IMG/VR virus record: IMGVR_UViG_2537562191_000038
Coordinates: 1 to 9,828 of that record
Source of the DNA: a virus
Taxonomy: Duplodnaviria > Heunggongvirae > Uroviricota > Caudoviricetes
Reading direction: 5' to 3' (one strand)
Length of the DNA: 9,828 bases
The notes below the pieces were generated by a model. That model saw nothing but the letters and a program-made list of their open reading frames with translations, did not search any database and had not been told where the DNA came from. Both the position numbers and the translations under genes were made by a program. This document shows, one piece after another, positions 5,176 to 8,705 of this stretch. Positions within the stretch are counted from its first letter, which is position 1, and the number at the start of each line of letters is the position of its first letter.

Positions 5176-5808
5176 TTAAGCCTTGTTAACAGAGACTTGA
5201 GCGGCTTTTATGGATAGATTCCCGCTGGCCTCTATCGCCATACTTCCCCCCGCCTTCAGGGCGACATCCGCGCCTGACTTTATATCGAGATTTCCTGCGG
5301 AAGAGATGAATGCCGGACCTTGAGAAATGGCATATAACTCCCCGGCCTCGTTGAACCCGATTGTTGTTCCACTTTTCAAGTGCGTAACGGCCCAGGCTCC
5401 GCCCGCCGTCCGGACCTCCATTAGTCCGTTCCGCGACGAAATAAAGTCTTTTTTGGCGCTGGTTGATGGTTGTGCTGGTGCACCTTCGACTTCAGGCGGT
5501 ACATAGCCTTCACCTTGTCCTGACGCTTCAGGCGGCACATTGGGAGCGCCACCGGATGCATCCTGTGCATAACCGATTATCAATGGCCATCGCGAATCTC
5601 CATTGTAGGGGAATTCTACCCATACTTTATCGCCGGGCAGAAATGGTGAAAATGTGTTTGCATTGGACAATATGGCTTCTGCCCACGGCAATGAGGCATC
5701 TGGTAGCCCATCCATCATGCCGACAACGCGTATTTGCGTACGCATCAGACCTTTAGGGTCATCGACGCTTACCACTACAGCCCGATACTTCCCTGTCAAA
5801 CTACCCAT
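5176..5808 (-). CDS. Phage baseplate central-spike-like protein (gpV / gp5-type N-terminal OB-fold), 210 aa
   Basis: N-terminal region [25 protein letters not shown]...LPWAEAIL...[25 protein letters not shown] fits the recalled gpV/gp45/VgrG-gp5 pattern (hydrophobic strand-D-x-x-G-R-x-RV ... W ... P-x-x-GD/E-x-V-x-V-x-F ... G-D ... P-x-I-x-G). This is followed by a Pro/Gly/Ala-rich linker and a C-terminal Gly/Ser/Ala-rich region that looks beta-strand-like. AGGAG sits 6 nt upstream of the ATG. Assignment is by pattern recognition, not a search. Confidence 0.5.
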
Positions 5809-6817
5809 TCACCACTCCTAACTGTGCACGGCTGACAAAACGAAAGCGGTCTTCGAAATGAGTCACGGACATCACTATCATTTTGTCAGGGATAGATTCA
5901 TCGAGTTCTCCGTCACCTGCCGTGTTATGCACGACAATTTTCAGCGTCGTACCCGGAGTTAGCGCGGCATTTCCTTCCACCAGCATATCGAGGCGGGGGA
6001 GAATGAATTTGTTGTAGTTCGCCAGCGCGGTAGGATCGGGATTGCTCGTAAATTTAATGGGGTCTTCCTGGTTACCTGAGTAAACCACACCTTTGGTCAT
6101 GTCATAACTGGCCATTCTGTAATTGTGGCGGCGCTGGTATTCATAATCGGCATTCAGGATGTTGAACTGACTAATTGTAAATCCGGATGTGTTGGGATTG
6201 GCGGACTCATAAGTAAGCGATGGAGCGGCGTTTGCCATTTTTTCCATACTTTTAAAATTGATCGTCCCCCTGGATGCCCAGCACATAGAACCGGTATCCC
6301 GGGCTATCTCCTGCAATACCTTGGTCGGTTTTTCTCCAACATTTAGGTGGTATGTGGATGTTTTTCTGAATGAGTCAGCATTTACCTTCAGACCAGGGGC
6401 AAGAGAGGAAACTACGGCTGATGGTGGCTTATCAACAAAATACTGTGCGCTGGTGGACGGAACTTTTAATAACCGCACCGGGTTACTAAACGCGTAAATC
6501 AGTACAGTATCGTCCTTGCGCGGCGCTTTAAGAACAAAGAACTCTTCCGAGAAGAGGATGCCGCCATGACCTTCCGGATCACCAAGTGAAACTGTCATTA
6601 TTGTCCCAAATTTCACCCCCAGCTTATTGACCACGTAAGCCGTTGAATCCCTGACCATGAGCATAAGCTGGGGACCAGATAGCTCCCCAGGTTCGACATA
6701 GGTACATCCTACGATCATTTCGCGAGGGATTTCGTTCTGCCCAATTGAAACAGATTGCAGGAATAGCTGAGTGCGTTTTGAATCAGTTTCCGGGGCTGTG
6801 GTGGTCTTTGTGGCCAT
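5801..6817 (-). CDS. Hypothetical protein, 338 aa; position immediately upstream of the spike gene suggests a possible baseplate-hub-like role (speculative)
   Basis: Long ORF, same strand as its neighbours; GGAGG sits 6 nt upstream of the ATG; its stop overlaps the spike gene start (ATGGGTAG). I recognise no motif. Confidence 0.6.
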
Positions 6818-6818
6818 C

Positions 6819-7622
6819 TCATTCCTCCAGAATTTTCGCTTTTACCGTTATGGTGCCGGTGGTTTGCTGCATATAAGCCAGGATAGGAAGTTCCGCCACA
6901 ACGGTGAGGTTCAATCCAACCGCGAACAGCCTGTTGTCGGCGGTGCCGGTGGTCAGATCCTGAAATGCGATTGATTTTTGCCCTTCTATGTAACAGGTAA
7001 CCGGTATCTCATAACCGCCGACATTGGCAATGTGAGTGAAAGATGCCTGCCCGAGGCTGGCATACATTCGTAGCCAGAATGCTAATGCAGTTGTAACCAT
7101 CCCAAGAGATTCCTTCTCGTCACTGGCTATCCATAGCGAATATTCCAGTGAGAAAGGGATAGTAGATACCAGGGCTTCAATCTCATCATTTTCATTGGTG
7201 ACATGCCCTTCATCGTAATTATCCCGGCACAGTTCACCTTCATAAATTGAAAACGCGGGAGAACGAGACAGATTCACAAGCGGCATTGCCAGCTTATTTA
7301 CTGGGCCAGCAGAGGCTGTATCTTTGCGCCCGGCGCGATCGGCTTCAAATGACGACAACCACTCCTTCACATCACTAAAAGTGCCGAGCGTTATGCGATC
7401 TCTTGGTGTGCGTTTCAGGAACTCCCTGAATGACTGGTTAGTGCGATCATTAAAGCTGACAACTTGTGAGTCGAATGCTTCGTTTAAAGCCTGTGCGAGC
7501 GCCGAATCAATGCCATCAATAGTGGCAAATTCCAGCTTACCGGTTGGAGTAAGACCTTTTTTCTTAAAGATGGCCAGTAGCCATTCCTGATTATTCAGAA
7601 TCACCGATGAAATTCCCTTCAA
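6819..7622 (-). CDS. Hypothetical protein, about 261-267 aa, start uncertain
   Basis: ORF in the same operon. Its stop (TGA) is 1 nt before the next ATG. The tracked start is a TTG at 7622 without an obvious ribosome-binding site; an in-frame GTG at 7604 preceded by AAGGGA is an alternative. Either start overlaps the upstream gene. Confidence 0.55.
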
Positions 7623-8319
7623 AGGCGCGTGAAGGCACGCAATAAAACAAACTGCCTACCCTGGCAGTGCCGTAATTGAATATTTTATGGATGTACCAGA
7701 AGCGGCGAATGGTTGTGCCGTCTGACAGCTGTTCCAGCCATTCGAGCATAGAACCCACTGGCACATTAACGGCGGCCAACCGAAGGATTAAAGCACTGTC
7801 GCTAATTCCCGTATTATCACTGCCGTCGTATAGCGCGTAGAAGGCGTCCATCTCATCCGGGCAGTCGAGGGCCGTTATCAGTTCTGGATCCTGATAGTCA
7901 TATATGCGTTGGTTCGGTTCTATTATTTCAGATGCCGTTTCAGGTGCATTTTTGTCTCTGTAAGGTATTGCGCGATACAGAACCGCATCGAATGAGTCAG
8001 GGTCTAGCTTGATTGCTTTGAGCCAGTCCATCCGCACAAGGTTATTAAAAACTGCATGACCTTGATAACGGTGGCGCACACCAGAATCACTAAGCAGGCC
8101 GTGATCCAGATTGGGAAGGTGATTGTCCTCCACAGGATCAACAATATTACCAACGTTAACACCATCGGTTTCGATTTCAGCATCAATATCTTCCTCTTCA
8201 ATCAGTTCAGAACCTTCGCCTGGAATATCCGGATCCGATTCGGTGTCCGGGAGGTTATCACCAGTCACTTGTTGTGATGGTTCTGTGTCCTCAAACATGT
8301 CATCAAAGAAACCAGCCAT
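7591..8319 (-). CDS. Hypothetical protein, 242 aa, with a strongly acidic N-terminal region of about 75 residues
   Basis: ATG at 8319 preceded by AAGGA at 6 nt; separated by 3 nt from the stop of the upstream gene. The first roughly 75 residues contain about 24 Asp/Glu and no Lys/Arg ([53 protein letters not shown]...). Confidence 0.6.
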
Positions 8320-8322
8320 CGA

Positions 8323-8705
8323 TTATCCTTTCCGTTTACGGGCTTCGTTAATTTGTGTCTCAAGAATGCTTCGCGCCTGCGCAGTGGCAGCGGCCTTGTC
8401 CATTCCCTGACTCATGAAAAACTTTATGAGGTTGTTCGCCTGCGTTTGCAGGGCTTTTTTGAGAGCGTCGGCTTCAGCGCGAGCCTGGGCTTCCCTCACC
8501 CGCGATGCTTTTAGTTCGGCATTCTTCCTGTTTGCCGTGGTGCGAGCTTTTTTTAACAACCGGCGAACGTTGTCCGTGGCGCTATCTTTTGCGCGTAGTT
8601 TTTTGCCTAATGCATCCTGAGATTTCAGATACAGCTCATACTCACGCGCAGCTTTAGCCTGATCCGTCGTTGTTGTCCGGTTGCGCGCGAGCGATTTAGC
8701 CAGTT
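8323..8705 (-). pseudogene. 5'-truncated gene for a Lys/Ala/Arg-rich, probably coiled-coil protein (at least 126 C-terminal codons retained); N-terminal part separated or lost by the IS629 copy 2 insertion
   Basis: The reading frame is open on the minus strand from the IS boundary (8705) to the stop at 8323-8325, with no ATG in the first 48 codons (KLAKSLARNRTTTDQAKAAREYELYLKSQDALGKKLRAKDSATDNVRRLLKKARTTANRKNAELKASRVREAQARAEADALKKALQTQANNLIKFFMSQGMDKAAATAQARSILETQINEARKRKG). The 78-aa ORF in the track starts only at an internal TTG. Confidence 0.55.

What the first reader, a model, noticed from the sequence alone, without database searches (positions are those of the whole stretch)
5176..8705. 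Tightly coupled five-gene operon of unassigned proteins ending in a gpV/gp5-like spike
Five co-oriented minus-strand genes (truncated Lys/Ala-rich coiled-coil protein, 242-aa protein with acidic N-terminus, about 265-aa protein, 338-aa protein, 210-aa spike-like protein) are packed with 0-3 nt gaps or short overlaps, and three have good ribosome-binding sites, so they are very likely real and co-expressed. Only the last gene resembles anything I know: an OB-fold baseplate spike (gpV/gp45/gp5 N-domain). The layout does not match a canonical P2, Mu, lambda or T4 tail module: the spike is the last gene, followed directly by a terminator, with no wedge or fibre genes, and the upstream proteins carry no signature I recognise. 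It could be a degraded prophage tail-tip cluster, part of a phage satellite, or a compact spike-delivering system not yet described.
Basis: partly seen in the sequence, partly recalled or inferred. Interest (0 to 1): 0.75.

Follow-up and report, generated by a model that had tools for sequence, protein, structure and literature searches.

The report
Phage P1 tail operon, IS-disrupted
The five genes are the well-studied neck, hub and spike genes (25, 7, 24, 6, 5) of bacteriophage P1, carried on a P1-like phage-plasmid of E. coli and cut at one end by an insertion sequence, so the finding is ordinary.

Summary
In detail: five tightly packed minus-strand genes lie at 5176-8705 and end in a spike gene and a terminator. 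They are not unassigned. The block is 98.5% identical in DNA to bacteriophage P1 (AF234172 72553-77233) and 100% identical to P1-like plasmids of E. coli O111:H8. It is the distal part of the P1 late operon 26-25-7-24-6-5. The four complete proteins are 98.6-99.6% identical to P1 gp5, gp6, gp24 and gp7. All four have cryo-EM structures: gp5 is the trimeric spike (OB fold plus beta-helix, no lysozyme), gp6 the trimeric hub, gp24 the tail terminator and gp7 the connector stopper. The "truncated coiled-coil protein" is residues 280-405 of gp25, whose role is still unknown. It is cut by an IS1203/IS629 insertion at 8705/8706. A second, inverted IS1203 (2718-4027, 3-bp duplication GAA) splits the neighbouring helicase gene ban. 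The odd layout, with no wedge, fibre, sheath or tube genes nearby, is the documented scattered arrangement of P1 tail genes. It is not a satellite or a new injection system. What is particular to this window is the pair of IS insertions, which probably cripple the prophage. Novelty: already known. Interest: low.

The parts
8323..8705 (-). 3' remnant of P1 gene 25 (gp25 residues 280-405 of 405; Lys/Ala-rich coiled-coil C-terminus). The 5' part is removed from this position by the IS1203 insertion.
   Evidence: 126/126 aa identical to P1 gp25 280-405; PHROG 1722 positions 329-410 of 410, E 2.3e-21; IS end at 8706.
7591..8319 (-). P1 gene 7: gp7, the hexameric stopper of the head-tail connector (old genetic label 'tail stability').
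   Evidence: 240/242 aa identical to P1 gp7; PDB 9ums_B 'Gp7' E 9.9e-165; role from cryo-EM in PMC12810830.
6819..7604 (-). P1 gene 24: gp24, the hexameric tail terminator (T4 gp15-like) that caps tube and sheath. GTG start, 14-nt overlap with gene 7.
   Evidence: 260/261 aa identical to P1 gp24; PDB 8jan_y 'Gp24' E 1.1e-171; PMC10304247.
5801..6817 (-). P1 gene 6: gp6, the trimeric baseplate hub (T4 gp27 / Mu gp44-like). It adapts the 3-fold spike to the 6-fold tube.
   Evidence: 335/338 aa identical to P1 gp6; PDB 9vzk_1 'Gp6' E 5.3e-226; PHROG 1390 E 2.2e-159; PMC9024508 and PMC12810830.
5176..5808 (-). P1 gene 5: gp5, the trimeric central spike (N-terminal OB fold plus C-terminal beta-helix, no lysozyme domain).
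   Evidence: 207/210 aa identical to P1 gp5; PDB 9vzk_q 'Gp5' E 7.3e-136; Pfam PF04717 E 1.1e-4, 22.9 bits against cut-off 23.8; PHROG 430 E 1.9e-51; PMC12810830.
5150..5176 (.). Bidirectional intrinsic terminator hairpin between the convergent genes 5 and dbn. It is identical in P1.
   Evidence: 11-bp stem, dG -18.1 kcal/mol, z -3.07; the intergenic sequence 5130-5175 is identical to P1.
8706..9828 (+). IS1203/IS629 copy B (IS3 family), cut by the window end, inserted in gene 25 antisense to the operon.
   Evidence: Inverted repeat of copy A; orfA 108 aa; annotated as IS1203 in related records.
2718..4027 (-). IS1203/IS629 copy A, 1310 bp, inserted in ban, with 3-bp target duplication GAA (2715-2717 and 4028-4030).
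   Evidence: Sequence read directly; alignment with copy B.
4131..5129 (+). dbn (P7 glt): putative glycosyltransferase, the convergent neighbour of gene 5. Context only, not part of the operon.
   Evidence: 320/332 aa identical to P1 Dbn; Pfam Glycos_transf_1 E 1.5e-5; PHROG 2518.
1454..2717 (+). ban (P1 DnaB-type replicative helicase), codons 1-421 of 454. The last 33 codons lie at 4028-4131, beyond IS copy A.
   Evidence: 419/421 aa identical to P1 Ban; Pfam DnaB_C E 1.4e-97.

Best explanation
The block is the promoter-distal part of the late operon 26-25-7-24-6-5 of a P1-like phage-plasmid (Punavirus) of E. coli. Its products are structural parts of the contractile tail. A gp5 trimer forms the membrane-piercing spike (OB fold plus beta-helix), capped in the virion by UpfC. 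A gp6 trimer forms the hub that joins the spike to the six-fold tube initiator rings (PmgG, Tub). A gp24 hexamer terminates the tube and sheath at the head end. [quoted passage not shown] In P1 the operon is read from the late promoter LP26, next to a C1 operator, upstream of gene 26. It ends at a bidirectional hairpin shared with dbn. The other tail genes (sheath 22, tube bplB, tub, pmgG, pmgA, bplA, 16, R, S, sit) lie elsewhere on the P1 genome. In this copy an IS1203 sits in gene 25. It removes codons 1-279 from the remnant and puts at least 1.1 kb of antisense IS between genes 7-24-6-5 and their promoter. A second IS1203 truncates ban. Inference: this prophage probably cannot make stable tails, so it is likely a decaying phage-plasmid. 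Identity and protein roles are shown; promoter use and loss of function are inferred.
For: DNA identity is 98.5% to P1 over 4025-8705 and 98-99% to P7, SJ46 and RCS47, all colinear. It is 100% to roughly 100-kb plasmids of E. coli O111:H8, and 467 of 5426 complete E. coli genomes carry at least 80% of the block. Protein identities to P1 are gp5 207/210, gp6 335/338, gp24 260/261, gp7 240/242 and gp25 remnant 126/126. PDB chains with these sequences and names are 9vzk (Gp5, Gp6), 8jan (Gp24) and 9ums (Gp7). Roles come from cryo-EM, proteomics and HHpred in PMC12810830, PMC10304247, PMC9024508 and bioRxiv 10.1101/2025.07.21.665459. LP26 and the C1 operator are annotated in the P1 and P7 records; the P7 note reads 'regulates expression of 26, 25, and other genes in 26 operon'. 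Terminator hairpin. IS boundaries, the target duplication and the gene 25 break point.
Against: Nothing found contradicts the identity. On functional status, the sequence beyond IS copy B is outside the window, so it is not shown that the 5' part of gene 25, gene 26 and LP26 still lie just beyond it. Polarity of the IS and the essentiality of gp25 were not tested here. Gonzales et al. found no clear structural role for gp25, and the cryo-EM studies did not locate it. My own fold test failed: single-sequence AlphaFold models had pLDDT 32.5 and 40.4. The fold assignments therefore rest on published structures of near-identical proteins.
Confidence: 0.96

Rival explanations
1. It is the same P1 operon, but the prophage is still functional. 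Either gp25 is dispensable or supplied in trans, and genes 7-24-6-5 are expressed by read-through or from a promoter within or at the end of the IS.
For: The roles of gp25 in structure and assembly are unresolved (PMC9024508) and it is absent from the cryo-EM models. Genes 7, 24, 6 and 5 are intact, with 9 amino-acid changes in total against P1. Ban is a DnaB analogue, so the host helicase could in principle stand in for it (my own knowledge).
Against: Gene 25 was defined by conditional-lethal tail mutants; the P1 record labels it 'tail stability'. The remnant lacks a start codon and 279 of its 405 codons. The IS lies antisense between the operon and its annotated late promoter.
Confidence: 0.2
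2. The two inverted IS1203 copies and the 4.68 kb between them form a composite transposon that moves a hub and spike cassette between replicons.
For: Two near-identical IS1203 copies in inverted orientation bracket 4028-8705.
Against: Copy A has its own 3-bp target duplication (GAA). The two halves of ban on either side of it are colinear with P1, so copy A is a simple insertion into a P1 backbone. The bracketed DNA has the same order and orientation as in P1 and in IS-free O111:H8 plasmids. Neither junction occurs in any of 5426 complete E. coli genomes or in PLSDB.
Confidence: 0.02
3. This is the reader's proposal: a phage satellite or a compact, undescribed spike-delivering system that is independent of a full tail module.
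For: No sheath, tube, wedge or fibre genes are in the window.
Against: Two of the four complete proteins are neck components (gp24, gp7), not tip components. The whole neighbourhood (tRNA, ban, dbn, 5-6-24-7-25) is colinear with P1, whose missing tail genes are known to lie elsewhere on the genome.
Confidence: 0.01

Closest known systems
Bacteriophage P1 late operon 26-25-7-24-6-5 (AF234172 / NC_005856, 73704-78455), and the same operon in P7, SJ46 and RCS47
   Same: Same gene order, orientation, overlaps and terminator, and the same flanking dbn and ban. DNA identity is 98.5%, and the four complete proteins are 98.6-99.6% identical.
   Different: Gene 25 is cut at codon 280 by IS1203 and ban is cut at codon 421 by a second IS1203. 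Upstream of the tRNA gene, an SPFH-protein gene replaces P1 tciABC, as in P1-like plasmids of O111, O26 and O145 strains.
T4 central spike-hub complex gp5-gp27 (with gp5.4), and Mu gp45-gp44
   Same: P1 gp5 has the OB-fold N-domain and the C-terminal beta-helix of T4 gp5. P1 gp6 has the tube-like domains of gp27 and gp44, which form a pseudo-six-fold trimer. Hub gene followed by spike gene is also the order in Mu (the Mu gene order is from my own knowledge).
   Different: P1 gp5 lacks the lysozyme domain. In P1 the muralytic activity is assigned to the SLT domain of the tape measure protein Sit (PMC9024508). Sequence similarity is detectable only at profile level.
T4 gp15 tail terminator, and the stopper (head-completion) proteins of sipho- and myophages
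   Same: The gp24 core domain superposes on T4 gp15, the R2 pyocin collar and the AlgoCIS cap (PMC10304247). gp7 has the helix, beta-sandwich and long-loop architecture of stoppers (PMC12810830).
   Different: gp24 has a distinct beta-hairpin that contacts the top tube ring. There is no Pfam or NCBIfam hit for either protein.

Membership tests
Bacteriophage P1 (Punavirus) late operon 26-25-7-24-6-5 | Nucleotide colinearity with the P1 genome across genes 5, 6, 24, 7 and 25 and the flanking dbn and ban | tested here: met
   98.5% identity in a single piece, window 4025-8705 against AF234172 72553-77233.
Bacteriophage P1 (Punavirus) late operon 26-25-7-24-6-5 | Full-length protein identity to P1 gp5, gp6, gp24 and gp7 | tested here: met
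   207/210, 335/338, 260/261 and 240/242 identical residues; PDB chains named Gp5, Gp6, Gp24 and Gp7 at E 1e-136 to 1e-226.
Bacteriophage P1 (Punavirus) late operon 26-25-7-24-6-5 | Complete operon with gene 26, intact gene 25, the late promoter LP26 and the C1 operator | tested here: not met
   Only codons 280-405 of gene 25 are present, and IS1203 starts at 8706. Gene 26 and LP26 are not in the window, and their presence beyond the IS cannot be tested.
Bacteriophage P1 (Punavirus) late operon 26-25-7-24-6-5 | Residence on a P1-type phage-plasmid that carries the rest of the virion and plasmid-maintenance genes | not testable with these tools
   The source replicon is not in the collections: neither IS junction was found. 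The closest relatives are 96-108-kb plasmids.
gp5/gpV/VgrG-type central spike (Pfam PF04717 OB domain plus beta-helix) | N-terminal OB-fold domain recognised by the family profile | tested here: inconclusive
   PF04717 covers residues 8-80 at E 1.1e-4, but 22.9 bits is just under the 23.8 cut-off. PHROG 430 'baseplate hub subunit and tail lysozyme' matches at E 1.9e-51. There are weak PDB hits to the OB region of Afp8 and All3320.
gp5/gpV/VgrG-type central spike (Pfam PF04717 OB domain plus beta-helix) | Trimeric beta-helical needle seen in a structure | not tested
   My single-sequence model was unusable (pLDDT 40.4). The feature is shown in the literature for the 98.6%-identical P1 gp5 (PDB 9vzk; PMC12810830).
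gp27 / Mu gp44-type baseplate hub | Tube-like beta-barrel domains forming a pseudo-hexameric trimer under the tube | not tested
   My single-sequence model was unusable (pLDDT 32.5). NCBIfam gives only a far sub-threshold VgrG_rel hit (E 0.0038). The feature is shown in the literature for P1 gp6: HHpred 99% to T4 gp27 and Mu gp44 (PMC9024508), and cryo-EM.
   The block and its flanks are colinear with P1. It contains neck proteins, and there are no satellite or eCIS markers.

The most novel reading that the evidence does not exclude
The only open biology here concerns gp25, the one protein of the operon with no assigned role or structure, and the natural IS knock-out of it. If the source phage-plasmid still made working tails, this would be a natural demonstration that gp25 is dispensable. 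If instead the retained C-terminal coiled-coil were expressed from the IS end, it could have a function of its own. Either would be a small addition to P1 biology, not a new system.
Probability: 0.05. Interest if true: 0.2.

Novelty: already known. Interest (0 to 1): 0.06.

Why it matters
It matters little for discovery, because these are textbook P1 morphogenetic genes with solved structures. Two practical points remain. First, RefSeq still labels these proteins 'hypothetical protein' in most P1-like plasmids, and neither NCBIfam nor Pfam has a passing model for them. Both a sequence-only reader and standard pipelines will therefore keep flagging them as unknown. Second, the window records IS1203-driven decay of a P1-like phage-plasmid in a Shiga-toxin-type E. 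coli background, which bears on how phage-plasmids become plain plasmids.

Tried and rejected
- **Structure prediction.** Single-sequence AlphaFold2 of the 338-aa and 210-aa proteins gave pLDDT 32.5 and 40.4. That is too poor for a fold search, so none was run.
- **Large homologue searches.** I ran no further search on building alignments, because 98.6-99.6% identity to solved P1 chains already settles identity.
- **Family libraries.** Pfam and NCBIfam gave nothing above threshold for gp6, gp24, gp7 or gp25.
- **gp25.** A PDB sequence search with full-length P1 gp25 found nothing.
- **Terminator scan.** The consensus terminator scan missed the hairpin at 5150-5176; folding showed it.
- **Source record.** Searching with the whole window and with both IS junctions in complete E. 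coli genomes and PLSDB found no record with these insertions.
- **P1 genome paper.** The Lobocka 2004 paper, tried under PMC523184 (an id I recalled from memory), was not returned by the library. Operon and promoter statements therefore rest on the GenBank feature tables.
- **Composite transposon.** This reading was considered and rejected because IS copy A has its own target duplication and the flanks are colinear with P1.
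Full report

| Gene | Coordinates | Length |
|---|---|---|
| 5 | 5176-5808 | 210 aa |
| 6 | 5801-6817 | 338 aa |
| 24 | 6819-7604 | 261 aa |
| 7 | 7591-8319 | 242 aa |
| 25 (remnant) | 8323-8705 | 126 aa, no start codon |

- Gene 24 is 261 aa from the GTG used in the P1 record and the PDB chain. The longest ORF, from TTG 7622, is 267 aa.
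- The junctions are a 3-nt gap (25/7), a 14-nt overlap (7/24), a 1-nt gap (24/6) and an 8-nt overlap (6/5).
- Genes 5, 6 and 7 have clear Shine-Dalgarno motifs; gene 24 has a weaker one.
- An 11-bp hairpin (5150-5176, dG -18.1 kcal/mol, z -3.07) follows gene 5 and overlaps the last base of its stop codon. It lies between the convergent genes 5 and dbn and has U-runs on both strands, so it is a bidirectional terminator.

**Identity.**
- The region 4025-8705 is one colinear match to bacteriophage P1 at 98.5% (AF234172 72553-77233). It matches P7, SJ46, RCS47 and other punaviruses at 98-99%.
- It is 100% identical to roughly 100-kb plasmids of E. coli O111:H8. At least 80% of it is present in 467 of 5426 complete E. 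coli genomes.
- The P1 feature table names the genes, in window order from 8705 down: 25, 7, 24, 6, 5. They are followed by the convergent dbn and by ban.
- Protein identities to P1 are gp5 207/210, gp6 335/338, gp24 260/261 and gp7 240/242. The truncated ORF is 126/126 identical to gp25 residues 280-405.
- Against P1 the five genes carry 28 nucleotide differences, 17 at third codon positions, and 9 amino-acid changes. This is consistent with conserved coding sequence.

**What the proteins do.** All four complete proteins have deposited structures under their P1 names: 9vzk (Gp5, Gp6), 8jan (Gp24) and 9ums (Gp7).
- *gp5* is the trimeric spike. With monomeric UpfC it resembles T4 gp5/gp5.4 but lacks the lysozyme domain (PMC12810830; PMC9024508).
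- *gp6* is the trimeric hub. Its tube-like domains form a pseudo-six-fold ring. HHpred gives 99% probability to T4 gp27 and Mu gp44. This overturns the old 'tail length' label.
- *gp24* is the hexameric tail terminator, related to T4 gp15 (PMC10304247).
- *gp25* gave a weak virion mass-spectrometry signal and has no assigned role. I found no Pfam or PDB match for it.

The operon therefore mixes neck and tail-tip parts. It is not a tail-tip cluster.

**Expression.** In P1 and P7 the operon starts at gene 26, downstream of the late promoter LP26 and a C1 operator. Those elements lie outside the window.

**Why the layout looked odd.** P1 tail and baseplate genes are scattered over the genome; gp6 and gp24 are genes 83 and 84, far from genes 30-41 and 54-57 (PMC9024508). 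The lack of sheath, tube, wedge and fibre genes beside the spike is thus the known P1 arrangement. Pfam gives only a near-threshold PF04717 hit for gp5 (22.9 bits against a cut-off of 23.8). NCBIfam gives nothing usable. PHROGs recognises all five.

**What is particular to this window.** Two IS1203/IS629 copies in inverted orientation bracket 4028-8705.
- Copy A (2718-4027, 1310 bp) has a 3-bp target duplication, GAA, and splits ban after codon 421 of 454.
- Copy B begins at 8706 inside gene 25 and runs off the window.
- The flanks of copy A are colinear with P1 and the bracketed DNA is in P1 orientation. These are independent simple insertions, not a composite transposon or an inversion.
- Neither junction occurs in the complete E. 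coli genomes or in PLSDB, so the source is not in those collections.

Inference: gene 25 is inactivated, and genes 7-24-6-5 are separated from LP26 by antisense IS sequence. The prophage is therefore probably defective for tail assembly. This was not tested.

**Failed checks.** Single-sequence AlphaFold models of gp6 and gp5 were unusable (pLDDT 32.5 and 40.4). No fold search was run, and the fold statements rest on published structures of near-identical proteins.

**Verdict.** The feature is already known, and interest is low.

Noticed in passing
window 3650-3654 and 3734-3738 (IS1203 copy A), against 9079-9083 and 8995-8998 in copy B: The two IS copies differ only in two A-run lengths: A5 against A4, and A5 against A6 at the orfA/orfB slippery run. 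In copy A, orfA stops early (81 aa against 108 aa) and the frameshift site is altered. This is either a transposase-defective copy or homopolymer sequencing error.
   Followed up: partly
window 1454-2717 and 4028-4131: ban, the P1 DnaB-type helicase gene, is split after codon 421 of 454 by IS1203 copy A, with target duplication GAA. The upstream part reads on into the IS to give a 501-aa chimeric ORF.
   Followed up: yes
window 1098-1173: ARAGORN calls this tRNA with anticodon CAT a tRNA-Met. The P1 record annotates the homologous gene as tRNA-Ile2 (ileX-like), which would need lysidine modification.
   Followed up: no
window 1-1088: This stretch has no homology to P1. An SPFH/Band-7 protein gene (243-1070) and a 78-aa hydrophobic ORF (26-262) replace P1 tciA-tciB-tciC. 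The same variant occurs in P1-like plasmids of O111, O26 and O145 strains.
   Followed up: partly
window 4131-5129: dbn, a putative glycosyltransferase of unknown function, is several times more diverged from P1 (38 of 999 nt, 12 aa) than the adjacent tail genes (28 of 3546 nt, 9 aa). This suggests mosaicism or relaxed or diversifying selection.
   Followed up: no
L002 10299-11516 (full-length P1 gene 25; the N-terminal part is absent from the window): The N-terminal region of gp25 contains a CxC...CxH string (FDCDCGRHQ...VACKHVLHA) that looks like a SWIM-type zinc finger. There was no Pfam hit at E up to 1 and no PDB match. gp25 remains the one protein of this operon without an assigned role.
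   Followed up: partly
RefSeq annotation of related plasmids (L001 13152-17516): PGAP labels gp5, gp6, gp24, gp7 and gp25 'hypothetical protein' in most P1-like plasmids, although four have solved structures. NCBIfam has no models for them.
   Followed up: yes
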